Source: an uncultured Chitinophaga sp.
GTDB lineage: Bacteria; Bacteroidota; Bacteroidia; Chitinophagales; Chitinophagaceae
Direction of reading: 5' to 3'
Length of the DNA stretch: 64,000 nt
Assembly: GCA_964634265.1 (NCBI GenBank)
Contig: CAZWIM010000003.1
Location: 138,541-202,540 of the forward strand
In this document: positions 1,145-24,568 of the stretch, one piece after another
Layout: every line of letters starts with the position of its first letter
How positions within the stretch are numbered: position 1 is the first letter of the stretch
Translations under genes and position numbers: made by a program
The notes under the pieces: model-generated
The model's input: only the letters and a program-made list of their open reading frames with translations
Told to the model about the DNA's origin: nothing
Database searches by the model: none

Positions 1145-1822
1145 TTAATCCCTTAGGAGGTCAGGCCTTCTTTCTTTTGTTCTTTGCAATGCCTGTTCGT
1201 GGCGCCATTCGTCAATCAGTTTATGATTGCCACTCATCAATACATCCGGAACTTTCCATCCACGGAATTCCACAGGCCGGGTGTAAACCGGCGGAGCCAG
1301 CATGTTATCCTGGAATGAATCTGTCAGAGCAGAGGTTTCATCATTTAGAACACCCGGAATAAGCCGGCCTATTGCATCTACCAATAAAGCAGCAGGAATT
1401 TCGCCGCCGCTTAGTACAAAATCGCCAATGGAAATTTCCCTTGTTACATACTGTTGACGGATACGTTCGTCAATGCCTTTGTAATGACCGCATATGATCA
1501 GCAGGTTTTCTTTCAAAGAGAAAGCATTGGCCATTTTCTGGTTAAACGTTATCCCATCAGGAGTCATATAAATGATCTCATCGTATTTTCTGTTCAGTGA
1601 TAATTCATCAATAGCTTTTGCCAACGGTTCACACATCATTACCATACCTGCGCCACCGCCATATTGGTAATCATCCACCTGCCCATAATCGTTTACAGCC
1701 CATTTGCGTAGCTGGTGAACCTTGATTGTGAGCAGGTTCTTTTCCTGCGCCCTTTTCATCATGCTGTGGTGAAAAGGACTTTCCAGCAGTTCAGGAAGTA
1801 CAGTCAGAATATCGATGTGCAT
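1145..1822 (-). CDS. trmD: tRNA (guanine-N1)-methyltransferase
   Basis: Motifs VDDYQYGGGAGMVM, ICGHYKGIDER, SIGDFVLSGGE. Confidence 0.97.
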   Translation of the reverse strand: MHIDILTVLPELLESPFHHSMMKRAQEKNLLTIKVHQLRKWAVNDYGQVDDYQYGGGAGMVMMCEPLAKAIDELSLNRKYDEIIYMTPDGITFNQKMANAFSLKENLLIICGHYKGIDERIRQQYVTREISIGDFVLSGGEIPAALLVDAIGRLIPGVLNDETSALTDSFQDNMLAPPVYTRPVEFRGWKVPDVLMSGNHKLIDEWRHEQALQRTKERRPDLLRD

Positions 1823-1842
1823 GCGGCAAAGATAGGAACTGC

Positions 1843-2226
1843 TTAATTGCAGGAAACCTCCACAACGGAGCGGCTTTCATTCACCGCCCTGTCTTTGGCT
1901 ATTACCTGTATTTTATAATTGATGCCGGCAGAAGCGGTAATAGATTCATTAAAGCTGGTTGAATTTGACCCGGGATAAATATGTACATCCATAAGTAAGG
2001 TCCCTGTATTGCTATTGCTGACATGTATATGCACTTCTGCGATATACTCATTGTCAGTAATATTACCACTGATAGGTATGGACTGGCCTGCTGTGAATGA
2101 TAGCCCGTTAACAGGAGTATTGATGGTGATAACCGGAAAGACTTTATCTCTTTCACTCTCCTTATTCTTAGAACAAGAAACCACTAATGAAGTCATTATT
2201 ATTAAATGTGCATAGCAGGCTTTCAT
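1843..2226 (-). CDS. Hypothetical lipoprotein with Ig-like (Big/DUF4625-like) domain
   Basis: Lipobox LVVSC; 'PVITINTP...F..G..I.ISG.ITDN' beta-sandwich pattern. Confidence 0.7.
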   Translation of the reverse strand: MKACYAHLIIMTSLVVSCSKNKESERDKVFPVITINTPVNGLSFTAGQSIPISGNITDNEYIAEVHIHVSNSNTGTLLMDVHIYPGSNSTSFNESITASAGINYKIQVIAKDRAVNESRSVVEVSCN

Positions 2227-2240
2227 GCTACAAAATTAAA

Positions 2241-2269
2241 CAAAAAGAAACCCCCGGAGAACCGGGGGT
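2241..2269 (-). terminator. Intrinsic terminator of the candidate sRNA
   Basis: Minus strand ACCCCCGG-TTCT-CCGGGGGT followed by TTCTTTTTG. Confidence 0.85.
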
Positions 2270-2340
2270 CGTGTAGAAACAAAAACCAACAATAACTCAT
2301 TTTCATGAGTTACATAAGTGTATGTAATACTTTCACCTGG
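2241..2340 (-). ncRNA. Candidate low-oxygen-induced small RNA (~100 nt)
   Basis: Perfect -7 TAGCTTTG (2351->2344) preceded by tandem FNR-like boxes; two hairpins (2310-2327; 2293-2312 with GAAA loop on the minus strand); GC-rich terminator 2250-2269 with U-tract. Confidence 0.6.
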
Positions 2341-2343
2341 AAA

Positions 2344-2409
2344 CAAAGCTAATATTGGGGATTTCAGAAAAAACTGATTATTATCAATTAATTTATTGAT
2401 TGCTGTCAG
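2344..2409 (-). promoter_or_regulatory. Tandem FNR-like boxes plus -7 element (sRNA promoter)
   Basis: CTGAT-TATT-ATCAA 2374-2387 and TTGAT-TGCT-GTCAG 2396-2409 (22 bp apart); TAGCTTTG 2351->2344. Confidence 0.8.
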
Positions 2410-2479
2410 GTTAGAAGCACAAGAAAAATTAGTAAGCGGATTGTCCCGAACTTTAATTCCGCAAAGATGTTACCTGAAT

Positions 2480-2701
2480 ATGAAAAAAGCTGAATTGATA
2501 CCTGTTCTGATTGTAAGCAGTTTACTTCTTTTTTATGTTGTGCTGGCTTTTTTGGATAAGGCTTCGGGTTTTACATCCTTTATTTTTTCATTCTCACCAT
2601 TTTTGGTGATTTGGCTGGTATATTCTGTAATCCGTCATGGCGAATATAAAGGAAAGGAGCTAAAATCTGATGAAGAGTTCGGGTATACAGATAAACTATG
2701 A
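2480..2701 (+). CDS. Small two-TM hypothetical membrane protein
   Basis: ORF 2396..2701, with the likely start at ATG 2480 (MKKAELIP); two hydrophobic segments and a charged tail EEFGYTD. Confidence 0.7.
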   Translation: MKKAELIPVLIVSSLLLFYVVLAFLDKASGFTSFIFSFSPFLVIWLVYSVIRHGEYKGKELKSDEEFGYTDKL

Positions 2702-3415
2702 TCAGGGATGACAGACGACCGCTTCCCCGGGTGACTGAGGTAATTCGGGGCTGATAAAAGGTATTCCGAGGTTTAATCCACGCATTATGAGTATTAGTCC
2801 CATAGCCACTACAAAATAAGGGACAGCTTTTCTCAATAATTCTCTTGTTTCCAGCTTCAGCTTTTGCCCTGCATAGGCTACCAGCATCATGGCAGGCAGA
2901 GTACCCAGGCCAAACATGGCCATAAAGCCAATGCTGTGATAGACTTCGGTAAAGGACAGGGTAGCTGCAACAGCTACATATACTAGTCCACAGGGTAATA
3001 ACCCATTGGCAAGCCCCATTAAGAGAAAACTGAAAGGACTGCCGGCATTTTTTAAGATTTTACCAATCATTTTTTGTATTGAAGCATAAAACCTGTTCAG
3101 TAAACTTAGATGAACAGTATACCGGCTAAAAAAGTATAATGCTGCAAGTAACAGGACTATTATTCCCAACCCGATAGAAAACCATTGCTGATAACCAGAG
3201 ATATAAATTCTTCTGCCGGCAAGGCCAAATACCAGTCCGATCAGGGAATAAGTAATGACCCTGCCAAACTGGTAGATTAATAGCGAGAAAAATTTTTGTG
3301 GTTTTGAAAAATGATTTACCGGTAATGCCAGGCTAAGCGGGCCGCACATGCCCACACAATGCAGGCTGCCTGCTGCACCCAATGTAAATCCTGATATTAA
3401 TACCGGCCATAGCAT
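2702..3415 (-). CDS. cbb3 assembly-associated membrane protein (DsbD_2 / TauE-SafE-like)
   Basis: GSLHCVGMCGP and NGLLPCGLVY motifs; last gene of the cco operon. Confidence 0.88.
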   Translation of the reverse strand: MLWPVLISGFTLGAAGSLHCVGMCGPLSLALPVNHFSKPQKFFSLLIYQFGRVITYSLIGLVFGLAGRRIYISGYQQWFSIGLGIIVLLLAALYFFSRYTVHLSLLNRFYASIQKMIGKILKNAGSPFSFLLMGLANGLLPCGLVYVAVAATLSFTEVYHSIGFMAMFGLGTLPAMMLVAYAGQKLKLETRELLRKAVPYFVVAMGLILIMRGLNLGIPFISPELPQSPGEAVVCHP

Positions 3416-3852
3416 TATAAAACGGTCAGGCTTTTTTCTGAATAATATGTTTTACCATCTTGTGCCCAGCTGATCTTTACTGTATAGTTACCTGAAGCAA
3501 TTTCGGTTAAAGGGAATTGCTGCTGGCCATTTTCATTTACCTGTAAGGTGAATTTTTTGTCTTTTTTCTTGTCGTAGGCGCAATAGAATAAAACATCACC
3601 AGTGATACTCTTGTTCTTCATTTCTTCAGGAAGTTGCAGCATGACGCCATTTTCAGATTGCACCAGCGTTACGGATGAGCCGAGCTCATTTGTCCGGTTG
3701 GAGGCATCAATCACCTGCTGGTAGCGTAGTTCGCTTTTGTAATAATCTTTTTCTACCAGCTCAAAATTTGTACTCATTGAACGATAGACCAGGTAGCCCA
3801 TGCCCAGGCCGAAAACGATGAATGTAACCAGTAATTTGTTGCCCCAGTTCAT
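3415..3852 (-). CDS. ccoH: FixH/CcoH family protein
   Basis: MNWG..., N-terminal TM, 'LVEKDYYKSELRYQ' motif; position in the cco operon. Confidence 0.85.
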   Translation of the reverse strand: MNWGNKLLVTFIVFGLGMGYLVYRSMSTNFELVEKDYYKSELRYQQVIDASNRTNELGSSVTLVQSENGVMLQLPEEMKNKSITGDVLFYCAYDKKKDKKFTLQVNENGQQQFPLTEIASGNYTVKISWAQDGKTYYSEKSLTVL

Positions 3853-3873
3853 AATGTTGTATTGTTGGTTTTA

Positions 3874-5319
3874 TTATAGCTTACTAAAAGGTCCCATAAA
3901 GTTAGTGCTGATAGAAGTTACTTTTTTGTCACCTTCATACAGACCTATTTTCAACCTTAATTTCCTCTTGTCGATAACATTTCTAGGCAGCACTATGAAA
4001 AATGAACCCGACGCCTGGTCTTCTTCTTTCAGCAGTATATTCTCAGTACCTATCAATTGAACATGCCCGGTTTTTCCGAAGTCTCCTTCCAGTTTTAATG
4101 TAACGGGTATATTTTTTATGGTCTTGTTGATGATCTTAATGTTATACAGGTTAGAAATGCTGTCGGCGCCTCTTTCCTGGTAGAGCTGCCCTCTTGTCCG
4201 GACAATAGTACCATCAATATCTTTTCGGCTTAGCAGCAGAGCAGAAAGTAATCCCGTAAGCACAATCAGAATAATAGTGTAAAATTTCATTCTGCCGGTA
4301 TACCGGAGTTTTTTTCCTTCCGCAATACCGTTTTCAGATGCATATCTTATAAGGCCCCTCGGTCTGTCTACTGCATCCATCATCTTGTCGCAGGCATCAA
4401 TACAAGCAGTGCAGCCTACGCATTCCATTTGTGTGCCATTACGGATGTCGATACCGGTTGGGCAGACTTTTACGCATTGAAAACAATCAATACAATCACC
4501 CGTATTCAATTCAGCTGCCTGCCCTTTTTTATATTTACCCCTGGGTTCGCCCCGTTTATAATCGTAAGCTACGATCATTGAGTTTCTGTCAAGAAGTACA
4601 CCCTGCAATCGGCCGTAAGGACAAACAACGGTGCAAACCTGTTCTCTGAAAAAAGCATAAACTCCGTAAAAAACAGCAGAAAAAATCAATATGGCCATGA
4701 AGCCAACAAAATGCTCACTTACCGGTTCGCTGATTATCTTCAGCAACTGATCCATCCCAATGATGTAAGCAAGGAAAAAGTTGGCGATGATGAAAGCAAG
4801 CAGGTAAAAGACAATATGTTTTGTTACTTTTTTCCTGATCTTCTCAGCAGTCCACGGCGATTTGTTAAGAATTTTTTGTTTGGCTGCATCACCCTCAATC
4901 AGGTATTCCATTTTACGGAACAGCATTTCCATAAAAATAGTTTGCGGACAGACCCATCCGCAAAACAACCTTCCGAATGCTGCTGTAAAAAGTACAATGA
5001 AGATAATGAAGGTTACCATCGTCAGCCCGAAGATGAAAAAATCTTGGGGCCAGAAAATTTTTCCAAAAATGATAAACTTGGCTTCAGGGATATTGAAAAG
5101 GAATAGTGGTCTTCCGTTCAATTCAATAAAGGGAAGCGCAAAGAACAATGCAAAGAAGCCCCAGCTAACCCAGGTACGGATATTGTAAAATTTACCCTTT
5201 GGTTTTTGGGCAAAGACCCATTTTCGTTTTCCTTTTTCATCAACCGTTGCTATCCTGTCCCTGAAGGACTCACCGGTTGAATTCTCATTCTCTAAATTGT
5301 TCTTTGCCTGATTTTCCAT
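3874..5319 (-). CDS. ccoG: Cytochrome c oxidase accessory 4Fe-4S protein
   Basis: FGRLFCGWVCPQT, CTVVCPYGRLQ, CIDCFQCVKVCP, CVGCTACIDAC. Confidence 0.95.
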   Translation of the reverse strand: MENQAKNNLENENSTGESFRDRIATVDEKGKRKWVFAQKPKGKFYNIRTWVSWGFFALFFALPFIELNGRPLFLFNIPEAKFIIFGKIFWPQDFFIFGLTMVTFIIFIVLFTAAFGRLFCGWVCPQTIFMEMLFRKMEYLIEGDAAKQKILNKSPWTAEKIRKKVTKHIVFYLLAFIIANFFLAYIIGMDQLLKIISEPVSEHFVGFMAILIFSAVFYGVYAFFREQVCTVVCPYGRLQGVLLDRNSMIVAYDYKRGEPRGKYKKGQAAELNTGDCIDCFQCVKVCPTGIDIRNGTQMECVGCTACIDACDKMMDAVDRPRGLIRYASENGIAEGKKLRYTGRMKFYTIILIVLTGLLSALLLSRKDIDGTIVRTRGQLYQERGADSISNLYNIKIINKTIKNIPVTLKLEGDFGKTGHVQLIGTENILLKEEDQASGSFFIVLPRNVIDKRKLRLKIGLYEGDKKVTSISTNFMGPFSKL

Positions 5320-5328
5320 TTTGCTCTC

Positions 5329-6513
5329 TTATTTCATCGTCACTGAATTATTCTTATTGACACTTGAGTCTGCAGCAGGTTTTGCTGGCACAGCTTCCTC
5401 TTCTTTATACAATTCACCTTGTGGCTCTTTCGCATTTGCCGGTTTGGTACCTCTTAATGATTTAATAAAGCTGGCTACCTGTGCGATCTGTTTAGGTGAT
5501 AAATCATCTTTCCAGCTCTTCATACCATTCTTAGCTCCGTATTTAATTGTTTTAAACAGATCTTTAATATTACCACCATAGATCCAATAATCATCTGTTA
5601 GATTTGGTCCAATGGCATTTCCACCGCCTTCAGGTCCATGACAAGCAACACATTTAGACGGATCAGTAAAGATTGCTTTTCCTGCAGCCAGGTCATCTGC
5701 ACTGGTCAGTAGTTTTACAGTGTTCTCGTCTACAGCGTCTCCCTTTTTCTTCATGTATTCCTTTATCCTTGCTTCTGCTTTTGCTACTGATCTTTCATAT
5801 TCTTCTTTACTGGAAGGTGCGGTGTGTGATACATGGTAACGCCACAGGTAAATACCTGCAAAAATGATGGTGAAATAAAAGCCATATAACCACCATGGCG
5901 GAAGCCGGTTATTCAGTTCTCGGATACCATCATAATCATGGCCAAGATCCAGGTCTGCTTCTTCGCTAACGGGTTTCAGTTTATTGAACCTGTCCCACCA
6001 ACTGAGTTTATTTCTTTTGACTTCTGCAATCTGTTCAGGAGTTGCGGTCTCTGTAACAAATTTTTCTTTCTCAGTTTTAAGAAGAAATTTGATATTTAGC
6101 AGCAGCCCGATTATGATCATCAATTCAATAAAAAGCACACCTGCCATGATGTAAAATGTACCGGCTGACATACCAGCTATTGTTTTAGCGGCAGTAGAAG
6201 TGGTTTCAGGAGTTGTACCCTGGGCAAAAACACTTGTGCCACCCAAGAGAAAAAATATTACCAGCACAGCAGCAACCGACTGGCCTTTTTCCATCGCTTT
6301 CTTCTTTTTGAGTTTTACATCTGCCGCACCAATCAGGATATTGGCAAGGATGCCGATTACAATTAAAAGCAGCAACATCAATGTTACCAGCATGATGATC
6401 ATTGGATTGCTGAAAGGTGATGGTGCCGGAGGTCCTGCAGCCCAAACGGGTTGCGCAGCCCAGAGCAATAGCCCTGAGAAAAGACCGAATATGTATTTTA
6501 AATTCTTTCGCAT
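5329..6513 (-). CDS. ccoP: cbb3-type oxidase subunit III (monoheme, N-terminally extended)
   Basis: HDYDGIRELNNRLPPWW, CVACHG, GPNLTDDYWIYGG, GMKSW. Confidence 0.93.
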   Translation of the reverse strand: MRKNLKYIFGLFSGLLLWAAQPVWAAGPPAPSPFSNPMIIMLVTLMLLLLIVIGILANILIGAADVKLKKKKAMEKGQSVAAVLVIFFLLGGTSVFAQGTTPETTSTAAKTIAGMSAGTFYIMAGVLFIELMIIIGLLLNIKFLLKTEKEKFVTETATPEQIAEVKRNKLSWWDRFNKLKPVSEEADLDLGHDYDGIRELNNRLPPWWLYGFYFTIIFAGIYLWRYHVSHTAPSSKEEYERSVAKAEARIKEYMKKKGDAVDENTVKLLTSADDLAAGKAIFTDPSKCVACHGPEGGGNAIGPNLTDDYWIYGGNIKDLFKTIKYGAKNGMKSWKDDLSPKQIAQVASFIKSLRGTKPANAKEPQGELYKEEEAVPAKPAADSSVNKNNSVTMK

Positions 6514-6715: not shown

Positions 6716-8857
6716 TTATTTGTTTTCAGCAATGGGTTTTTTAGCTTCTCCCTGTATATCCCGGCCTAAACGCTGCAGGTAAGCAATAAGTGCTATCACT
6801 TCAACATTGGAAGCTGTTTCGATCTTATCTTTTTTCAGATTGGCAGCAATTGAATCAGCCTGGTGCATCAGGTCACGGTTGGCAATTTTATCATAGCCAT
6901 CCGGGTAAGGTACACCCAGTGTCTTCATCGCCCTGATCTTTGCAGGAGTAGAACCTGTGTCAATTTTATTATCCAGCAACCAAATATATCTCGGCATTAA
7001 TGAGCCGGGTGATGTAAGTCTTGGGTCATACATGTGAGTGTAATGCCAGGAGTCAGGTCTTTTGTTTTTATCGTGTCCTTCTCTTGCCAGGTCCGGACCG
7101 GTACGTTTACTTCCCCACTGGAACGGATGATCATAAACAAACTCACCGGCCTTGGAATATTCACCATACCTGGCCACTTCATCACGGAACGGACGGATCA
7201 TTTGAGAGTGGCAGGTATAACAGCCTTCTCTCACATAAATATCCCTGCCCTGTAGTTCAAGTGGTGTGTAAGGCTTCACACTGGCAATGGTCGGAACATT
7301 TGATTTTACCAGGAATGTCGGGATCATCTGTACAAGGCCACCTATTGCCACAAGGATTAAACTCAATACCAGCATAGTAACAGGTTTTCTTTCAATAACC
7401 CTGTGCCAGTATTCTTTTTTAGCATGTTCTCCCTTCACCAATGGTGCTGCTTCAGCAGCTTCGTTTGCAATAAACTTACCGGCAACGATCGTTTTATAAA
7501 GATTATAAACCATCATTAATGCACCGATGAGGTATAAAGAACCACCCACACTGCGGGCAATATACATGGGCTTGATATTGGTCACAGTTTGCAGGAAGTC
7601 ATATTTAATCTGACCTTCCGGTGTAAATTGTTTCCACATCAGGCTCTGTTCAAAACCAGCCCAATACAGGGGGACAGCATATAAAATGATACCAATGGTA
7701 CCCAGCCAGAAGTGGTTAGTAGCCAACTTCTTTGAATATAGATTGGTACCCCACATTTTAGGGATCATATAATAAAGGATCGCAAATGCAAGGAAGCCAT
7801 TCCAGCCTAATCCACCGATATGTACGTGGGCTATTGTCCAGTCACTGAAGTGAGAGATGGCATTTACATTTTTCAAACTCAGCATCGGGCCTTCAAAGGT
7901 GCTCATACCATAACAGGTAATAGCCACTACCATGAATTTCAGAACAGGATCTTCCCTGACCTTATCCCATGCTCCCCGTAAAGTGAATAAGCCATTCAGC
8001 ATACCGCCCCAGCTTGGTGCTATAAGCATGACGGAGAATACAACACCCAGTGATTGTGCCCAGTCAGGCAAAGCTGTATATAAAAGGTGGTGAGGGCCGG
8101 CCCAGATATAAATAAATATCAATGCCCAGAAGTGAATAATAGAAAGTCTGTAAGAATATACCGGCCTGTTAGCTGCTTTGGGTAGGAAATAATACATAAG
8201 TCCCAATACAGGTGTGGTAAGGAAGAAGGCTACGGCATTATGTCCGTACCACCATTGTACCAACGCATCCTGTACACCGGCATACCAGCTATAGCTTTTC
8301 AATGCTGAAACTGGTATTTCAATGGAGTTAACTATGTGCAGCATAGCCACAGTAACCCAGGTAGCTATGTAGAACCAGATGGCCACATACAGGTGACGTT
8401 CTCTTCTTTTAATAATGGTACCAAACATGTTGATACCAAAAATTACCCATACCAGGGTGATAGCGATATCAATTGGCCATTCCAGTTCGGCGTATTCTTT
8501 ACCGGTTGTTTTACCCATCAGCAGAGTTATGGCTGCTGCTGCAATAATGAGCTGCCAGCCCCAGAAATGAACCCAGCTTAGCTTATCACTGAACATTCTG
8601 GCTTTACAGAGACGTTGTAAAGAATAATAAATACCGGCAAACGATGCATTACCTACAAAGGCAAAGATGATGGCGTTGGTATGCAACGGACGGAGGCGTC
8701 CGAAGGTGGTAGCGGCAAGGTTAAGGCTGCTTTCCGGATAATAGATCTGTATAGCAGCCCATAAGCCGGCCAGCATACCTACAATACCGAATAAGATCGT
8801 GGCCAAACCAAAGGCTTTAACGATCTTATTGTCATAATAAAACTTTTCTACTTGCAT
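6716..8857 (-). CDS. ccoNO: Fused cbb3-type oxidase subunits I/II (CcoN-CcoO)
   Basis: RPLHTN, QWWYGHNAVAF, WAGPHH, AHVH, then EGCYTCHSQMIRP and WGSKRTGPDL. Confidence 0.97.
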   Translation of the reverse strand: MQVEKFYYDNKIVKAFGLATILFGIVGMLAGLWAAIQIYYPESSLNLAATTFGRLRPLHTNAIIFAFVGNASFAGIYYSLQRLCKARMFSDKLSWVHFWGWQLIIAAAAITLLMGKTTGKEYAELEWPIDIAITLVWVIFGINMFGTIIKRRERHLYVAIWFYIATWVTVAMLHIVNSIEIPVSALKSYSWYAGVQDALVQWWYGHNAVAFFLTTPVLGLMYYFLPKAANRPVYSYRLSIIHFWALIFIYIWAGPHHLLYTALPDWAQSLGVVFSVMLIAPSWGGMLNGLFTLRGAWDKVREDPVLKFMVVAITCYGMSTFEGPMLSLKNVNAISHFSDWTIAHVHIGGLGWNGFLAFAILYYMIPKMWGTNLYSKKLATNHFWLGTIGIILYAVPLYWAGFEQSLMWKQFTPEGQIKYDFLQTVTNIKPMYIARSVGGSLYLIGALMMVYNLYKTIVAGKFIANEAAEAAPLVKGEHAKKEYWHRVIERKPVTMLVLSLILVAIGGLVQMIPTFLVKSNVPTIASVKPYTPLELQGRDIYVREGCYTCHSQMIRPFRDEVARYGEYSKAGEFVYDHPFQWGSKRTGPDLAREGHDKNKRPDSWHYTHMYDPRLTSPGSLMPRYIWLLDNKIDTGSTPAKIRAMKTLGVPYPDGYDKIANRDLMHQADSIAANLKKDKIETASNVEVIALIAYLQRLGRDIQGEAKKPIAENK

Positions 8858-9085: not shown

Positions 9086-9151
9086 TAAAAGTATTTTGAG
9101 GGTATAGGGTGTCAGGTAATAATTATCACTCAGGGAACTGATTTTTATCAT
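9086..9151 (-). promoter_or_regulatory. Tandem FNR-like boxes plus -7 element (ccoS-NOQP promoter)
   Basis: GTAAT-AATT-ATCAC 9116-9129 and CTGAT-TTTT-ATCAT 9138-9151; TACTTTTA 9093->9086. Confidence 0.75.
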
Positions 9152-20726: not shown

Positions 20727-20744
20727 AAAGACATCGATGTCTTT
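20727..20744. promoter_or_regulatory. Candidate Rrf2 operator 1
   Basis: Perfect palindrome AAAGAC-ATCGAT-GTCTTT immediately downstream of the predicted nos -7 element. Confidence 0.65.
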
Positions 20745-20752
20745 AATGGGGT

Positions 20753-20818
20753 CAAAAGTATCAGGGAGTAAAACTGTATAATATGACAACCATCAAATAA
20801 TCAGCTGATATTTATCAC
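20753..20818 (-). promoter_or_regulatory. Tandem FNR-like boxes plus -7 element (nos promoter, possibly bidirectional)
   Basis: ATGAC-AACC-ATCAA 20783-20796 and CTGAT-ATTT-ATCAC 20805-20818; TACTTTTG 20760->20753; degenerate TTTTTTTG 20841-20848 at the mirror position on the + strand. Confidence 0.8.
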
Positions 20819-20825
20819 CTTGAAA

Positions 20826-20843
20826 TAGGACAGCTTGGTCTTT
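20826..20843. promoter_or_regulatory. Candidate Rrf2 operator 2 (autoregulatory)
   Basis: TAGGAC-AGCTTG-GTCTTT, same GAC-N6-GTC core as operator 1, overlapping the rrf2 promoter. Confidence 0.55.
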
Positions 20844-20852
20844 TTTTGCAAA

Positions 20853-21293
20853 ATGGTATGTTCTAAGTCTTTTGGATATGCTCTAAGGGGGATACTTTAT
20901 GTTGCATTGATGAATGATCAGAAGCCCCGGGTACAGGTAGAAGAAATAGCTGAAAAGCTATCTGTACCCAAGCATTACCTGGGTAAGATTATGAAGCAGG
21001 TGGTGAAAGAAGGTATCCTATCATCTACAAAAGGTCCTTATGGCGGTTTTTCTTTAAATGAAACTACGCTTTCAAGTCCTTTGATTAATATCCTTAAGAT
21101 CACAGATGGGTTTGAACAATTCAATACCTGTGTGCTAAGATTAAGAAAATGCAATTCCAGCCGTCCTTGTCCGCTTCATGACCAGATTGAAGCTAACAGG
21201 AAGCAATGGTTACAAATATTTTCTAAAACCAGTATAGGAGACCTTTTGAACAAAGATGAAGTCAGCTTCCTGGAAGGGCTGGCAACTATTTAA
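20853..21293 (+). CDS. Rrf2-family transcriptional regulator (Fe-S type, possibly NO-responsive)
   Basis: SKSFGYALR, STKGPYGGF wing, CVLRLRKCNSSRPCPLH; ATG 20853 preferred over TTG 20835. Confidence 0.9.
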   Translation: MVCSKSFGYALRGILYVALMNDQKPRVQVEEIAEKLSVPKHYLGKIMKQVVKEGILSSTKGPYGGFSLNETTLSSPLINILKITDGFEQFNTCVLRLRKCNSSRPCPLHDQIEANRKQWLQIFSKTSIGDLLNKDEVSFLEGLATI

Positions 21294-21305
21294 AGTCAGA
21301 AAGAC

Positions 21306-21371
21306 GATATAAAAATCATTCTCCGGCCTGATTTAAGTCAGGTCAGCAGCATATTACATATTCTAATTTGC
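21306..21371 (+). promoter_or_regulatory. Tandem FNR-like boxes plus -7 element (ric promoter)
   Basis: GATAT-AAAA-ATCAT 21306-21319 (half site) and CTGAT-TTAA-GTCAG 21328-21341; TAATTTGC 21364-21371. Confidence 0.65.
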
Positions 21372-21408
21372 CTCCAAATTTTCTTTTTAAAAAAGAAATG
21401 AGAGTATT

Positions 21409-22164
21409 ATGTTTTTGAAGCCATTACGAATAGAACCAACTTCATTTGTAACAGATATTGTAACGGCTGATTACCGGACTGCAGAAGTATTTCGTAAATA
21501 CGATATCGAATACTGCTGTGGCGGAAGATGGCCGTTAGAAATGGTTTGCCATGCAAAAGGACTTAATATAAACGACCTCACCAGGGAATTGGAGCAGTCA
21601 ATTCGCTCTGTACAGGTGCCCAATTCATTGCCTTTTAATGAATGGCATATTGATTTTTTAGCTGATTATATTGTAAATGTTCATCATCATTATTTGCGTA
21701 CACAGCTTCCTGAAATAAAGGAACTGATCCGGAAGTTTTCAGAGGAGCATTTAAAAAAATATCCTTTTTTGCAGGAGGTTGAAAAAATATTCCTCCAATT
21801 ATATAAGGAAATGATTCCTCACCTGAAGCAAGAAGAAGAGATCATTTTCCCTTATATACGACAGATAGCTCATGCCTATGAAAGCAGTGAGTCTTATGCC
21901 AGTTTGCTGGTAAGAACACTTCGCAAACCTGTGGAAGAAGTAATGAACCACGAACATGCTTCCGTGGTGAGATCAGTACATCGTATCAGGGAACTTACAA
22001 ATGATTACACTCCTCCGCCAAATGCCTGTGTTAGTCATAAGGTCACATTCTCTAAATTGAAAGAACTGGATAACGACCTGATGCAGCATATGCACCTGGA
22101 GAATAACATCCTCTTTCCCCGGGCTATTGAAATGGAAAAAATCTTGTTAGCCACAAAGGATTAG
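21409..22164 (+). CDS. ric: Iron-sulfur cluster repair di-iron protein (Ric/YtfE/ScdA)
   Basis: DYRTAEVFRKYDIEYCCGG, HHHYLR, HLKQEE, EH, HMHLENNILFP. Confidence 0.95.
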   Translation: MFLKPLRIEPTSFVTDIVTADYRTAEVFRKYDIEYCCGGRWPLEMVCHAKGLNINDLTRELEQSIRSVQVPNSLPFNEWHIDFLADYIVNVHHHYLRTQLPEIKELIRKFSEEHLKKYPFLQEVEKIFLQLYKEMIPHLKQEEEIIFPYIRQIAHAYESSESYASLLVRTLRKPVEEVMNHEHASVVRSVHRIRELTNDYTPPPNACVSHKVTFSKLKELDNDLMQHMHLENNILFPRAIEMEKILLATKD

Positions 22165-22229: not shown

Positions 22230-23477
22230 ATGCATCTTGACGCAGCACATATGACATCTCTGTTCGAGAATGCTACAGAGGGAATTATTTTGGTAAATCA
22301 ACAAGGGGAGATTGTATTGGCCAATCCTTCTGCTGGCCGGATGTTTGGCTATGAACCGGACGAACTGATCGGACAACAAATTGAAATACTTATTCCTGAG
22401 AGGTTCAGTACTCATCACCATCATCACAGAGATGGGTTTTATCAAAAACCATCAAACAGGGTTATGGGGCAGGGCCGGGATCTGTATGGTAAAAGAAAAG
22501 ATGGCACTGACCTGCCCGTGGAAGTTAGTCTGAGCCATTATAAAAAGGAGGATCAGCTTTTTGTGATTGCCTTCATTGTTGATATTACAAAGCGGAAAGA
22601 AATAGAAAGCAGCATGCTTCAGCAAAAGCGGGAGCTGGAAAAGATCACCGATAAAATACGGCAGCTTAATGCCAGCCTGGAAGTAAAGGTAGAAGAACGG
22701 ACACTTATATTGAAAGAAGCATTGCAGAAGCTTGAGCAGTCACAATTGGAACTGAGTGAAGCACTGGATAAAGAAAGACAACTGAATGAGATCAAAAGCC
22801 GCTTTGTTTCAATGGCGTCTCATGAGTTCAGGACACCGCTGAGTACTGTTCTTTCTTCGGCATCATTGCTGTCTAAATACAAAACAGGAGAAGAACAGGA
22901 GAAAAGGGATAAACATATTCAGCGGATCAAGAATTCAGTCAATCACTTAAATGACATACTGGAGGACTTCCTTTCTTTGGGCAAACTGAATGAAGGAAAA
23001 GTTGATAAAGTAGCCGACCAGGTTTCCCTTAAGGAAGTAATACTTGATACAATGGATGAGATGAGGGGCATTTTGAAAAAAGATCAATACTTTGATTTCC
23101 AGTGTGATTCTGATTGTAATGCCTGTACGGATAAAAAGCTATTCAAAAATATCCTTATCAACCTGATCAGCAATGCCAGTAAGTTTTCCGACGAAGGAAA
23201 GAAAATCCTTATCAAGAGCAAGGTAGAAGATGATAATGTTATTGTCTCCGTTATTGATGAGGGAATTGGTATATCCGAAGAGGATCAGCTGCATCTTTTT
23301 TCCAGCTTCTTCCGTGGGGCCAATGCTACCAATATCCAGGGCACCGGCCTAGGATTGCACATTGTGAAGAGTTATATTGATCTGCTGGGAGGGGATGTAA
23401 GATTAAAGAGTACGTTAAATACAGGAACAACAATTACCTTTACGGTTCCTGTAAATTTACTTGAAAAGGAAGAATAG
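22230..23477 (+). CDS. PAS-domain sensor histidine kinase (FixL/DosP-like PAS)
   Basis: PAS with HHHHHR..F...P..RVMGQGRDLYGKRKDG; SHEFRTPL H-box; NLISNASKFS; DEGIG; GTGLGL. Confidence 0.92.
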   Translation: MHLDAAHMTSLFENATEGIILVNQQGEIVLANPSAGRMFGYEPDELIGQQIEILIPERFSTHHHHHRDGFYQKPSNRVMGQGRDLYGKRKDGTDLPVEVSLSHYKKEDQLFVIAFIVDITKRKEIESSMLQQKRELEKITDKIRQLNASLEVKVEERTLILKEALQKLEQSQLELSEALDKERQLNEIKSRFVSMASHEFRTPLSTVLSSASLLSKYKTGEEQEKRDKHIQRIKNSVNHLNDILEDFLSLGKLNEGKVDKVADQVSLKEVILDTMDEMRGILKKDQYFDFQCDSDCNACTDKKLFKNILINLISNASKFSDEGKKILIKSKVEDDNVIVSVIDEGIGISEEDQLHLFSSFFRGANATNIQGTGLGLHIVKSYIDLLGGDVRLKSTLNTGTTITFTVPVNLLEKEE

Positions 23478-23512
23478 ATAACCTGTTGCTATAACCAACA
23501 AAAAACCAACAC

Positions 23513-24568
23513 ATGAAATCAATACTGGTAATAGATGACAACCCCGATATCAGGGAGAATACCGCAGAAATCCTGGAGCTGGCAGGATATAAAACCCTGA
23601 CAGCTGAAAATGGTAAGAAGGGTGTTGAGTTAGCCCAAAAAGAAAAACCAGATGTTATTGTTTGTGATATAATGATGCCTGAACTTGACGGGTATGGTGT
23701 GTTGCACCTGCTCAGAAAGAACCCGGAAACAGAGCAAATCCCATTTTTATTTCTTACTGCTAAAACAGAGAGAAGTGATTTTCGCAAAGGGATGGAAATG
23801 GGAGCTGATGATTATATTACCAAGCCATTCGAAGACATCGAATTACTGAATGCCATAGAAACCCGTCTTCGCAAAGCGGCGATCATGGATAATAAGTATG
23901 CCGCATCTCATCAAGGTATCAACCAGTTCATTAAGGATGTAAAAAATTCAGGACTGATGAGCCAGCTGGCTGATCAGTACGATGTAGAAGTTTATACAAA
24001 GAAGCAGACACTTTACCAGGAGGGAAAACGGCCAAGGTTCCTCTATTACCTGGTCAAGGGCAAGGTGAAAGGATTTAAGACACATGAAGATGGTAAGGAA
24101 TATATAACGGATCTGTTCAGCGATGGCGACTTTATTGGCTATCCTGCTTTAATTGAGGATAAAAACTATGATGATTCTGCTGTTATCCTTGAAGATGCAG
24201 AGATCATGCAGATACCCAGGGAAGATTTTCTGCAAATGATCTACGGCAATATAGATATCGCAGCTAAGTTTATCCGGATTATTACACAGAATGTTAAAGA
24301 AAAAGAAGACAGGCTGCTGAACCTTGCTTACAGCTCGTTAAGAAAAAGAGTAGCAAAAGCGTTGGTGGATATACATGGTAAATTCAACGCAGAAAACCCT
24401 AGTAAGCCCCTTGAGATTTCAAGAGAAGATTTTGCGCATTATGTAGGAACGGCTACGGAATCCCTTATCCGTACACTTAGCGATTTCAAGTCCGAGAAAC
24501 TCATCGAAATAAAAGATGGAAAAATATCTATCATCAATTTAGATAAGCTCAAAAACTTATTATTTTAA
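23513..24568 (+). CDS. Response regulator with REC plus Crp/Fnr (cNMP + HTH) domains
   Basis: ILVIDD, CDIMMP, KPF receiver; Crp fold; HTH GTATESLIRTLSDF. Confidence 0.92.
   Translation: MKSILVIDDNPDIRENTAEILELAGYKTLTAENGKKGVELAQKEKPDVIVCDIMMPELDGYGVLHLLRKNPETEQIPFLFLTAKTERSDFRKGMEMGADDYITKPFEDIELLNAIETRLRKAAIMDNKYAASHQGINQFIKDVKNSGLMSQLADQYDVEVYTKKQTLYQEGKRPRFLYYLVKGKVKGFKTHEDGKEYITDLFSDGDFIGYPALIEDKNYDDSAVILEDAEIMQIPREDFLQMIYGNIDIAAKFIRIITQNVKEKEDRLLNLAYSSLRKRVAKALVDIHGKFNAENPSKPLEISREDFAHYVGTATESLIRTLSDFKSEKLIEIKDGKISIINLDKLKNLLF

What the first reader, a model, noticed from the sequence alone, without database searches (positions are those of the whole stretch)
2241..2409. Unannotated ~100-nt structured RNA under the low-oxygen regulon (FnrS-like role in Bacteroidota)
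Seen: on the minus strand, tandem boxes (2396-2409, 2374-2387) are followed, 23 bp from the proximal box, by a perfect -7 element TAGCTTTG (2351->2344). Then come hairpin TTACATA-CACT-TATGTAA, hairpin TAACTCAT-GAAA-ATGAGTTA with a GNRA loop (the two overlap by 3 nt), an unpaired U/G-rich stretch, and a strong terminator with a U-tract. The next gene (2226) has its own -7 element (TAATTTTG 2238->2231), so it does not need this transcript. Known: enterobacterial FnrS is an FNR-activated, multi-hairpin sRNA. Inference: this is an independent sRNA induced at low O2, and I recognise no named family for it.
Basis: partly seen in the sequence, partly recalled or inferred. Interest (0 to 1): 0.85.

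Follow-up and report, generated by a model that had tools for sequence, protein, structure and literature searches.

The report
Low-oxygen small RNA of Chitinophagaceae
A roughly 98-nt regulatory RNA gene sits at the tail of respiratory-oxidase operons across the family Chitinophagaceae, shares its Crp/Fnr-type promoter design with the low-oxygen respiration genes, and appears to base-pair with the start of the oxidase-assembly genes ccoG/ccoH; it is a new RNA family, so far supported only by comparative genomics.

Summary
All the reported elements are at the stated coordinates on the minus strand.

- **Conservation.** 111 distinct homologous loci were recovered, and strong matches span 16 genera of Chitinophagaceae. 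None were found elsewhere in the order, and no Rfam family matches.
- **Promoter.** The proximal box lies 34-36 bp (35 in 77) upstream of the -7 element in 85 of 111 loci, centring it at -41.5. A second box lies 22 bp further upstream in 81. The same design precedes ccoS-ccoNO, ccoI, nor, nos and hsp20 in this window.
- **Structure.** Hairpin 2 and the terminator are kept through compensatory changes (17 of 17 pairs). The 16-nt stretch between them is 94% identical.
- **Target.** That stretch is complementary to the ccoG start region in 21 of 33 genomes (4.3% background). A U/C difference in the RNA tracks A/G in ccoG. In this genome the match is on ccoH instead.

Verdict: this is a new, own-promoter, base-pairing sRNA of a FixL/FixK-like low-oxygen regulon. 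It resembles FnrS, PcrZ and NarS in role but is not a member of any of them.

The parts
2397..2408 (-). Distal Crp/Fnr-type box TGACAGCAATCA, centre at -63.5
   Evidence: Read. A box 22 bp upstream of the proximal box is present in 81 of 111 homologous loci.
2375..2386 (-). Proximal Crp/Fnr-type box TGATAATAATCA, centre at -41.5 (class II activator position)
   Evidence: Read. The box start lies 35 bp upstream of the -7 element start in 77 loci and 34 or 36 bp in 8 more. The -7 box spans -12 to -5 in Bacteroidota (PMC9723704).
2344..2351 (-). Bacteroidota sigma-A -7 element TAGCTTTG
   Evidence: Read. A TAnnTTT(G/A) element is found at the equivalent place in 85 of 111 loci.
2241..2339 (-). 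Predicted sRNA, about 97-99 nt, with +1 inferred at 2339/2338 and the 3' end in the U-tract
   Evidence: The start is inferred from the -7 position. Fold z = -4.5. The covariance model matches 30 genomes in 16 genera at E below 1e-6. No Rfam family matches.
2310..2327 (-). 5' hairpin 1 (TTACATA/CACT/TATGTAA), specific to this lineage
   Evidence: Present here and in the closest relatives only. The 5' part varies in length and sequence elsewhere.
2293..2312 (-). Conserved hairpin 2 (TAACTCAT/GAAA/ATGAGTTA)
   Evidence: All 8 pairs show changes on both sides, and mean column identity is only 52%.
2271..2294 (-). Single-stranded seed UAUUGUUGGUUUUUGUUUCUACAC
   Evidence: Unpaired in the RNAalifold consensus. 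14 of 16 core columns are at least 95% identical in 40 sequences that were not selected by the search pattern. Complementary to ccoG/ccoH start regions.
2241..2270 (-). Intrinsic terminator (9-bp G+C-rich stem, loop UUCU, U-tract)
   Evidence: Found by the terminator scan. All 9 pairs show compensatory changes across genera.
3861..3872 (-). Predicted target site in this genome: AAAACCAACAAT, 8 nt upstream of the ccoH (FixH) ATG at 3852
   Evidence: A 12-nt perfect complement to the seed. Duplex -14.7 kcal/mol against -7.7 for the reversed seed. Kept in the closest relatives L002, L089 and L003.
23501..23511 (+). Weaker candidate target: AAAAACCAACA, 1 nt upstream of the ATG of the REC-Crp regulator
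   Evidence: An 11-nt complement, -14.0 kcal/mol. Not conserved across the genus: median -10.5 against -10.3 for the reversed seed.
22230..24568 (+). Candidate sensor-regulator pair: PAS-HisKA-HATPase kinase (22230-23477) and REC-cNMP-HTH_Crp fusion (23513-24568)
   Evidence: Pfam assignments. The PAS domain matches FixL and DosP heme domains at E about 1e-14. The regulator is present in 28 of 30 genomes that carry the sRNA, and lies on the same contig 3-35 kb away in 19.
9117..9150 (-). Tandem boxes of the ccoS-ccoNO promoter, same architecture as the sRNA promoter
   Evidence: C3:147690, with a -7 element TACTTTTA. Further copies have their distal boxes starting at window 11666 (ccoI), 13545 (cyt c-nor), 20817 (cyt c-nosZ) and 25185 (hsp20).

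Best explanation
Window 2339-2241 (minus strand) encodes a trans-acting, base-pairing small RNA of about 98 nt that belongs to a previously undescribed family confined to Chitinophagaceae.

**Transcription.** It starts from its own sigma-A promoter. That promoter depends on a Crp/Fnr-family activator bound at two TGA-N6-TCA boxes centred at -41.5 and -63.5. The same design drives the cbb3 oxidase, nor and nos operons. The signal is therefore most likely low oxygen, relayed by the linked FixL-like heme-PAS kinase and the REC-Crp fusion regulator (inferred).

**Anatomy.** The RNA has a variable 5' part, a conserved hairpin, a nearly invariant unpaired stretch GUUGGUUUU(U/C)GUUUC and an intrinsic terminator.

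**Action.** The unpaired stretch pairs with the translation-start region of ccoG. In this genome's small clade it pairs instead with the start region of the next cistron, ccoH. Both genes lie inside the cco operon, whose 3' end the RNA gene occupies.

**Likely outcome (inferred).** Occlusion of the start region reduces translation of the distal assembly genes relative to the structural genes ccoNOQP. This would be an incoherent feed-forward loop. Other targets must exist, because half of the genomes with the RNA lack ccoG. The genome has no Hfq, so any helper protein would be of another type, for example one of its five single-RRM proteins.
For: **Shown**
- All elements are present, and the fold is better than every shuffle.
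- 111 distinct loci were found. 85 have a box 34-36 bp before the -7 element (77 at exactly 35), and 81 have a second box 22 bp upstream, while the spacer sequences vary freely.
- TAnnTTTG spans -12 to -5 (PMC9723704), which puts the box centres at -41.5 and -63.5.
- Tandem boxes are enriched in the genome: 92 hits counting both strands, against 20-30 in shuffles. With a -7 element they precede ccoS-ccoNO, ccoI, cyt c-nor, cyt c-nosZ and hsp20.
- Both helices covary. 17 of 17 pairs change on both sides, with a score of 0.60 against 0.20 for shuffles and about 0.1 for slid controls. RNAalifold finds the same helices and leaves the seed unpaired.
- Seed columns average 94% identity against 52% for hairpin 2.
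- ccoG 5' regions pair with their own genome's seed at or below -14 kcal/mol in 21 of 33 cases. The reversed seed does so in 6 of 33, and 4.3% of 2747 G000 gene starts do.
- Control genes in the same loci score low: trmD 0 of 76, dsbD2 1 of 45, lipoprotein 1 of 34, ccoP 0 of 10.
- The seed's U/C variant tracks GAAACA versus GAAACG in ccoG: 13:1 against 2:6, Fisher p = 0.002. This includes sites in non-coding positions before the ATG.
- This genome's ccoH start region has a 12-nt perfect match, -14.7 kcal/mol.
- The downstream genes have their own -7 elements, 4 nt before their ATG.
- The kinase's PAS domain matches FixL and DosP heme domains. The REC-Crp regulator is present in 28 of 30 RNA-bearing genomes and linked within 3-35 kb in 19.
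- The genome has no Hfq and has five RRM proteins.

**Inferred**
- The transcription start point.
- Which regulator binds the boxes.
- Repression as the outcome.
Against: - The start, the end and low-oxygen induction are all predictions.
- Genome-wide, predicted pairing with start regions is not clearly enriched over the reversed or shuffled seed: 44 against 5-34 at or below -16 kcal/mol. Exact matches of at least 10 nt are only 2.4-fold enriched, 26 against 11.
- This genome's own ccoG lacks the site (-8.6 kcal/mol).
- The ccoH site is confined to a few relatives, 8 of 44.
- 15 of 30 genomes with the RNA have no ccoG.
- The ccoG site often encodes Glu-Thr-Lys-Thr, so part of its conservation could be at the protein level.
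- The genomes compared are related, so the Fisher test and the counts overstate independence.
- Three Crp-family proteins in the genome could bind the boxes.
- The RNA is nearly always just upstream of trmD on the same strand, which a purely trans-acting role does not explain.
Confidence: 0.72

Rival explanations
1. It is a cis-acting leader or attenuator of the downstream lipoprotein/trmD genes. Transcription from the box-dependent promoter usually stops at the terminator and reads through under some condition.
For: The element lies upstream of trmD on the same strand in nearly all loci, 28-600 nt away.
Against: - trmD and the lipoprotein gene each have a canonical -7 element 4 nt before their ATG, so they do not need this transcript.
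- No conserved alternative (anti-terminator) pairing is seen. The stretch before the terminator stays unpaired and invariant.
- In 11 loci the module is fused to the 3' end of a cytochrome c gene and has no promoter of its own.
- Seed-to-ccoG complementarity with covariation is not expected of a leader.
Confidence: 0.06
2. It is only the 3' untranslated end and terminator of the oxidase operon, with no regulatory function of its own. The boxes would serve something else, for example the divergent 73-aa gene in this genome.
For: - In most relatives the boxes begin within about 10 nt of the dsbD2 stop codon with no terminator in between, so operon transcripts must end at this terminator.
- Class B copies have no promoter.
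Against: - A passive 3' end would not keep 14 of 16 unpaired positions at least 95% identical across 16 genera while both helices drift.
- The -7 element sits at a fixed 35 bp and points into the RNA.
- On the plus strand there is no -7 element at the matching distance.
- Most genomes have no divergent gene at this place.
Confidence: 0.08
3. It is a protein-binding RNA. The invariant U/G-rich stretch would be a binding site that titrates or recruits an RNA-binding protein, for example an RRM protein, rather than a base-pairing seed.
For: - Invariance over 15 nt is unusually strict.
- Genome-wide pairing enrichment is weak.
- The genome lacks Hfq but has five RRM proteins.
Against: Complementarity to ccoG is specific among the neighbouring genes. 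It tracks the U/C seed variant, including at non-coding sites. Protein binding and base pairing do not exclude each other.
Confidence: 0.1
4. It encodes a small hydrophobic peptide, such as the 36-codon TTG frame 2346-2236 or the frame starting at the ATG in hairpin 2.
For: An open frame exists in this genome. 28 of 85 homologues have some ATG frame of at least 15 codons crossing the seed.
Against: 57 of 85 homologues have no such frame. Length differences between seed and terminator and in the hairpin are not multiples of three. The substitution pattern is that of paired RNA helices.
Confidence: 0.02

Closest known systems
FnrS (Rfam RF01796), the FNR-activated sRNA of Enterobacteriaceae
   Same: It is a roughly 100-nt RNA with its own promoter and an intrinsic terminator. 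An oxygen-linked Crp/Fnr-family activator sits at the class II position (-41.5). An unpaired stretch pairs with translation-start regions, and the RNA is part of the anaerobic or micro-oxic regulon. The FnrS features are from established knowledge; the features here are.
   Different: There is no sequence or structure similarity: no RF01796 match at E up to 10. This RNA has two boxes rather than one. Its host has no Hfq. It sits at the 3' end of an oxidase operon. Its best-supported target is a gene induced by the same signal (ccoG/ccoH), not an aerobic-metabolism gene.
PcrZ of Rhodobacter sphaeroides, a low-oxygen sRNA dependent on PrrA and FnrL
   Same: The logic is an incoherent feed-forward loop: the low-oxygen regulator switches on both a set of operons and an sRNA that damps some of those same genes. 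The PcrZ part is established knowledge. The part concerning this RNA is inference.
   Different: The phylum is unrelated, there is no homology, the targets are different (photosynthesis genes), and PcrZ works in an Hfq-containing host.
sRNAs embedded in mRNA 3' ends: NarS (narK 3' UTR, nitrate respiration), and DapZ and MicL (own promoter inside the upstream gene, shared terminator)
   Same: In most genomes the RNA shares its terminator with the upstream respiratory operon. Class A copies have their own promoter just after the last stop codon, like DapZ and MicL. Class B copies have none and would need processing, like NarS.
   Different: This is a new sequence family in Bacteroidota. Its proposed target lies in the same operon that carries it, which would make it a self-directed loop rather than cross-regulation.
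Bacteroidota sRNAs described so far: GibS, MasB and the FopS family in Bacteroides thetaiotaomicron (PMC7366714, PMC11697453), and Rfp18 in Flavobacterium psychrophilum (PMC9723704)
   Same: All are Hfq-independent riboregulators in the same phylum, with TAnnTTTG promoters and targets in A-rich start regions that lack Shine-Dalgarno sequences.
   Different: None is reported as oxygen-controlled or linked to respiratory operons in the papers retrieved. None matched through Rfam. Those papers describe no Chitinophagaceae sRNA.

Membership tests
FnrS (RF01796) | Match to the family covariance model | tested here: not met
   cmscan of 1500-3500 at E up to 10 lists only JA04, MicX, suhB and others far below their gathering scores. 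FnrS is not among them.
FnrS (RF01796) | Promoter with an FNR-type site at the class II position | tested here: met
   The proximal TGA-N6-TCA box is centred at -41.5 here and in 85 of 111 homologues. This is a likeness of mechanism, not of descent.
FnrS (RF01796) | Hfq-dependent action | tested here: not met
   PF17209 finds no Hfq in the 98.5%-complete genome, while the control genomes do give hits.
Any Rfam 15 family | Score at or above the gathering threshold | tested here: not met
   The best match is 21 bits against a threshold of 81.
Trans-acting base-pairing sRNA (generic kind) | Own promoter and Rho-independent terminator delimiting a short non-coding transcript | tested here: met
   The promoter geometry and terminator are conserved. 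No conserved reading frame exists. The transcript itself has not been observed.
Trans-acting base-pairing sRNA (generic kind) | Conserved unpaired seed with conserved complementarity to a target mRNA | tested here: met
   The seed is 94% identical and unpaired. ccoG 5' regions pair in 21 of 33 cases against 4.3% background, with U/C-to-A/G co-variation at p = 0.002.
Trans-acting base-pairing sRNA (generic kind) | Demonstrated effect on target translation or stability | not testable with these tools
   This needs reporter fusions with compensatory mutations.
3'-end-embedded sRNA with its own promoter (DapZ/MicL type) | Promoter at or inside the end of the upstream gene, no terminator in between, and a shared terminator | tested here: inconclusive
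   Met in most relatives, where the boxes begin within about 10 nt of the dsbD2 stop and dsbD2 ends 100-120 nt before the seed. In this window a 73-aa gene on the other strand (2480-2701) separates dsbD2 from the boxes.
Crp/Fnr class II activated promoter | Binding by an oxygen-responsive Crp/Fnr-family protein | not testable with these tools
   The candidates are the REC-Crp fusion (recognition helix TESLIR) and two plain Crp-family proteins with E--SR helices. None has an FNR-type N-terminal Cys cluster.

The most novel reading that the evidence does not exclude
A family-wide riboregulator rides on the 3' end of terminal-oxidase operons: cbb3 in most genomes, a ba3-like coxII-coxI-SCO1-cyt c operon in others. 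It folds back in trans on an internal cistron of its own operon (ccoG or ccoH). The cell can thereby uncouple synthesis of oxidase assembly factors from structural subunits as oxygen falls. The RNA is driven by a FixL-like kinase and a one-protein FixJ-FixK fusion (REC-Crp) in a phylum without Hfq. The target site has moved between neighbouring cistrons during evolution while the seed stayed fixed.
Probability: 0.4. Interest if true: 0.8.

Novelty: new member of a known kind. Interest (0 to 1): 0.68.

Why it matters
- **A gap in the phylum.** Riboregulation in Bacteroidota outside the gut Bacteroides is almost unexplored, and no oxygen-responsive sRNA is described for the phylum in the sources searched.
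- **Ready for experiment.** This RNA comes with a defined promoter logic, a candidate sensor-regulator pair, a conserved seed and a target supported by seed-target co-variation. It can therefore be tested directly.
- **Environmental relevance.** The carriers are abundant in activated sludge, freshwater and groundwater. There, switching between oxic respiration, cbb3-dependent micro-oxic respiration and N2O reduction (nosZ lies in the same regulon) affects nitrogen removal and N2O emission.
- **A model for Hfq-free pairing.** It offers a natural case for how base-pairing RNAs act on start regions that lack Shine-Dalgarno sequences, and for how a target site can move between cistrons.

Tried and rejected
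- **Rfam.** The permissive search found nothing relevant.
- **Literature.** Searches for a Chitinophagaceae or Bacteroidota oxygen-linked sRNA, and for FixK-linked sRNAs, gave no description of this RNA.
- **Genome-wide target prediction by duplex energy.** There was no clear excess over the reversed or shuffled seed, so the single-genome ranking is not trusted. Exact-match counts are only about 2-fold enriched.
- **The REC-Crp regulator's start region as a conserved target (a feedback loop).** It holds in this genome and a few relatives: 6 of 19 have at least 9 nt (my count from the listing), and 4 of 17 reach -14 kcal/mol or lower. The genus-wide median equals the reversed-seed control. It is kept only as a weak candidate.
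- **ccoH as the general target.** It holds in only 8 of 44 loci.
- **Using presence of the regulator to separate box-bearing from box-less copies.** This is uninformative, because the regulator is present in 28 of 30 genomes.
- **Small-peptide reading.** Rejected.
- **The boxes serving the divergent 73-aa gene.** Rejected, because there is no -7 element at the required distance on the plus strand.
- **Hairpin 1 as part of the family core.** Rejected, because it is not conserved.

Full report
**1. What is in the sequence**

- Two boxes, CTGACAGCAATCAA (2409-2396) and TTGATAATAATCAG (2387-2374), have 12-mer cores TGA-N6-TCA whose starts are 22 bp apart.
- TAGCTTTG lies at 2351-2344.
- Two hairpins overlap by three bases (2327-2310 and 2312-2293).
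- An unpaired U/G-rich stretch follows.
- A terminator with 9 pairs (7 G-C) and a U-tract lies at 2270-2241.

The 100-nt RNA folds at -33.1 kcal/mol, and none of 200 shuffles folds as well (z = -4.5).

In Bacteroidota the sigma-A box TAnnTTTG occupies -12 to -5 (PMC9723704). The start is therefore inferred at 2339/2338, the RNA is about 98 nt, and the box centres fall at -41.5 and -63.5.

**2. Surroundings**

Upstream on the same strand lies a cbb3 oxidase cluster: ccoNO 6716-8857, ccoP 5329-6513, ccoG 3874-5319, ccoH 3415-3852 and a DsbD_2-family gene 2702-3415. A small 73-aa membrane ORF lies on the other strand at 2480-2701. Downstream lie a Big_7/DUF4625 lipoprotein gene (1843-2226), trmD (1145-1822) and a GHL10 gene.

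Further upstream are a copper ATPase, a cyt c plus COX1-like (nor-like) pair, and a nosZ-nosL-nosD-ABC cluster. Beyond those are Rrf2 and ScdA genes, a PAS histidine kinase and a REC-cNMP-HTH_Crp fusion.

**3. The element is conserved, and it is a gene**

- BLAST found the element in 18 of 24 genomes of the same genus.
- A pattern scan of one genome per species found 85 stretches, all in MAGs labelled Chitinophagaceae or broader Bacteroidota.
- A covariance model of the 3' module hit 30 of 301 family genomes at E below 1e-6. These fall in 16 genera.
- At the same threshold, the 251-genome order sample gave hits only in the own genus; no other family gave any.
- Rfam has no family for it, and the searched literature has no description.

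On the model-based alignment all 17 pairs of hairpin 2 and the terminator show changes on both sides. The covariation score is 0.60, against 0.20 for shuffles and about 0.1 for slid partners. RNAalifold independently returns the same two helices and leaves the stretch between them unpaired.

In the 40 sequences that were not retrieved through the exact pattern, 14 of 16 columns of CGUUGGUUUU(U/C)GUUUC are at least 95% identical. Hairpin 2 columns average 52%. This is the signature of a sequence-constrained single strand flanked by structure-constrained helices.

No reading frame is conserved.

**4. The promoter**

Among 111 distinct loci, 85 have a TGA-N6-TCA box starting 34-36 bp before a TAnnTTT(G/A) element, and in 77 the distance is exactly 35. 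In 81 loci a second box lies 22 bp further upstream. The sequences between these elements are free to vary.

In this genome tandem boxes are three- to four-fold more frequent than in shuffles (92 against 20-30, counting both strands). Those followed by a -7 element precede ccoS-ccoNO (window 9150), ccoI (11666), cyt c-nor (13545), cyt c-nosZ (20817), hsp20 (25185) and the RNA.

On the plus strand there is no -7 element at the right distance for the divergent 73-aa gene. The RNA therefore belongs to the regulon that switches on micro-oxic respiration and denitrification steps.

**5. Which regulator and which signal (inferred)**

The genome has three Crp-family proteins with plausible recognition helices. 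None has an FNR-type cysteine cluster.

The REC-Crp fusion next to a PAS kinase is the best candidate, for three reasons.
- The kinase's PAS domain matches the heme domains of FixL and DosP at E about 1e-14.
- The fusion is present in 28 of 30 genomes that carry the RNA.
- It lies on the same contig, 3-35 kb from the RNA, in 19 of them, including genomes without cbb3.

This looks like a FixL-FixJ-FixK chain compressed into two proteins. Binding has not been tested.

**6. Position in the genome**

In most genomes the boxes begin a few bases after the stop codon of the last cco gene, and dsbD2 ends 100-120 nt before the seed. No terminator lies between them, so the operon's transcripts must also end at the RNA's terminator. 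The 73-aa gene in this window is an insertion shared only with close relatives.

In 11 loci (class B) there are no boxes. There the module follows a membrane-anchored cytochrome c gene whose stop codon lies in or next to the hairpin. That gene ends a coxII-coxI-SCO1-cyt c operon. The module thus sits at the 3' end of a terminal-oxidase operon in both arrangements.

trmD follows on the same strand in almost every locus. However, trmD and the lipoprotein gene each carry a canonical -7 element 4 nt before their ATG, which predicts leaderless transcripts of their own. This argues against a leader function.

**7. Targets**

Ranking all 2751 start regions of this genome by duplex energy gave no clear excess over the reversed or shuffled seed. 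Exact matches of at least 10 nt were 26 against 11. Single-genome predictions are therefore weak.

The comparative signal is different. Within the loci already fetched, the 5' region of ccoG stood out. 85% of 20 distinct sequences pair at or below -14 kcal/mol, against 10% with the reversed seed and 0-3% for trmD, dsbD2, the lipoprotein gene, ccoP and GHL10.

Adding ccoG from other genera, each paired with its own genome's seed, gave 21 of 33 against 6 of 33. The background is 4.3%.

Genomes whose seed reads ...UUUUCGUUUC have GAAACG in ccoG, and those with ...UUUUUGUUUC have GAAACA (6:2 against 1:13, p = 0.002). The sites lie from 16 nt before the ATG to about codon 10, some in non-coding sequence.

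Three caveats apply.
- The genomes are related.
- Many sites encode Glu-Thr-Lys-Thr.
- 15 of 30 carriers lack ccoG altogether, so other targets exist.

In this genome and its two closest relatives ccoG lacks a convincing site: -8.6, -14.0 and -10.9 kcal/mol, against -11.5, -12.6 and -12.8 for the reversed seed. The start region of the next cistron, ccoH, carries a 12-nt perfect match at 3872-3861, -14.7 against -7.7 kcal/mol.

The 11-nt match before the regulator's ATG (23501-23511) is real but not conserved across the genus.

**8. Mechanism proposed**

Low oxygen activates the kinase and regulator. The regulator, bound at -41.5 and -63.5, switches on the oxidase, nor and nos operons and also the RNA. 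The RNA's unpaired stretch then covers the start region of ccoG or ccoH and lowers their translation relative to the upstream structural genes.

- Shown: the anatomy, conservation, promoter geometry, shared regulon architecture and complementarity with co-variation.
- Inferred: the transcript ends, the identity of the regulator, the oxygen signal and the direction of the effect.

The host has no Hfq but has five RRM proteins.

**9. Comparison and novelty**

In role the RNA resembles FnrS (a class II FNR promoter), PcrZ (an incoherent loop at low oxygen) and the 3'-end-embedded sRNAs NarS, DapZ and MicL. It is not a member of any of these families: there is no model match, no Hfq and a different phylum.

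I rate it a new member of a known kind, namely a transcription-factor-controlled base-pairing sRNA. Its placement is unusual, and it may be directed at its own operon.

**10. Verdict**

- Confidence that this is a real conserved RNA gene with a Crp/Fnr-type promoter is about 0.9.
- Confidence that it is a low-oxygen base-pairing regulator acting on ccoG/ccoH is about 0.6.
- Confidence in the explanation as a whole is 0.72.

Noticed in passing
window 1822-1840 and 2226-2238 (minus strand); also L008, L011, L012, L088 and others: trmD and the lipoprotein gene each have a canonical -7 element (TATCTTTG, TAATTTTG) exactly 4 nt before their ATG. This predicts leaderless mRNAs. The trmD arrangement TATCTTTG-N4-ATG is conserved across genera.
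   Followed up: partly
G000 C8:28828-28902 (outside the window); similar in L131: A second module with a related unpaired stretch (CAGUUGGUUUUGGUUUACA) and a terminator lies directly after the stop codon of an Hsp20 gene. The covariance model scores it at 37.6 bits (E about 9e-6). It may be a paralogous 3'-end sRNA with a similar seed.
   Followed up: partly
window 22230-24568: A kinase with a FixL-like PAS domain is followed by a receiver domain fused to a cNMP-binding/Crp DNA-binding module, with only one cysteine. The fusion is 70-99% identical across 16 genera and stays within 3-35 kb of the sRNA.
   Followed up: partly
window 2480-2701 (+): A 73-aa predicted membrane ORF with no Pfam match is inserted between the cco operon and the sRNA promoter. 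tblastn finds it at this place in the closest relatives (L002, L003, L089), and about 2.6-2.8 kb upstream of the sRNA in L030 and L086.
   Followed up: partly
L039, L067, L079, L092, L093, L111, L119, L123, L128, L130, L132: In these genomes the sRNA module has no boxes. It is attached to the 3' end of a cytochrome c gene that closes a coxII-coxI-SCO1-cyt c operon, judged from the CuA motif and CxxCH by eye. The stop codon lies in or beside the hairpin loop.
   Followed up: partly
G000 C10:81296-81424 and C15:3590-3745: Two further tandem-box promoters precede genes whose 5' regions also contain 12-nt perfect complements to the seed. One is a 548-aa flavoprotein/ferredoxin-type oxidoreductase and the other a 72-aa protein with a twin-arginine-like signal. 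Both could be same-regulon targets.
   Followed up: no
window 20727-20848 and 20835-22164: An Rrf2-family regulator and a ScdA/hemerythrin (iron-centre repair) gene lie divergent from the nos operon. ScdA- or Rrf2-like genes, recognised by eye, also flank the sRNA in two carriers that lack ccoG (L113, L121). This suggests a nitric-oxide input to the same island.
   Followed up: no
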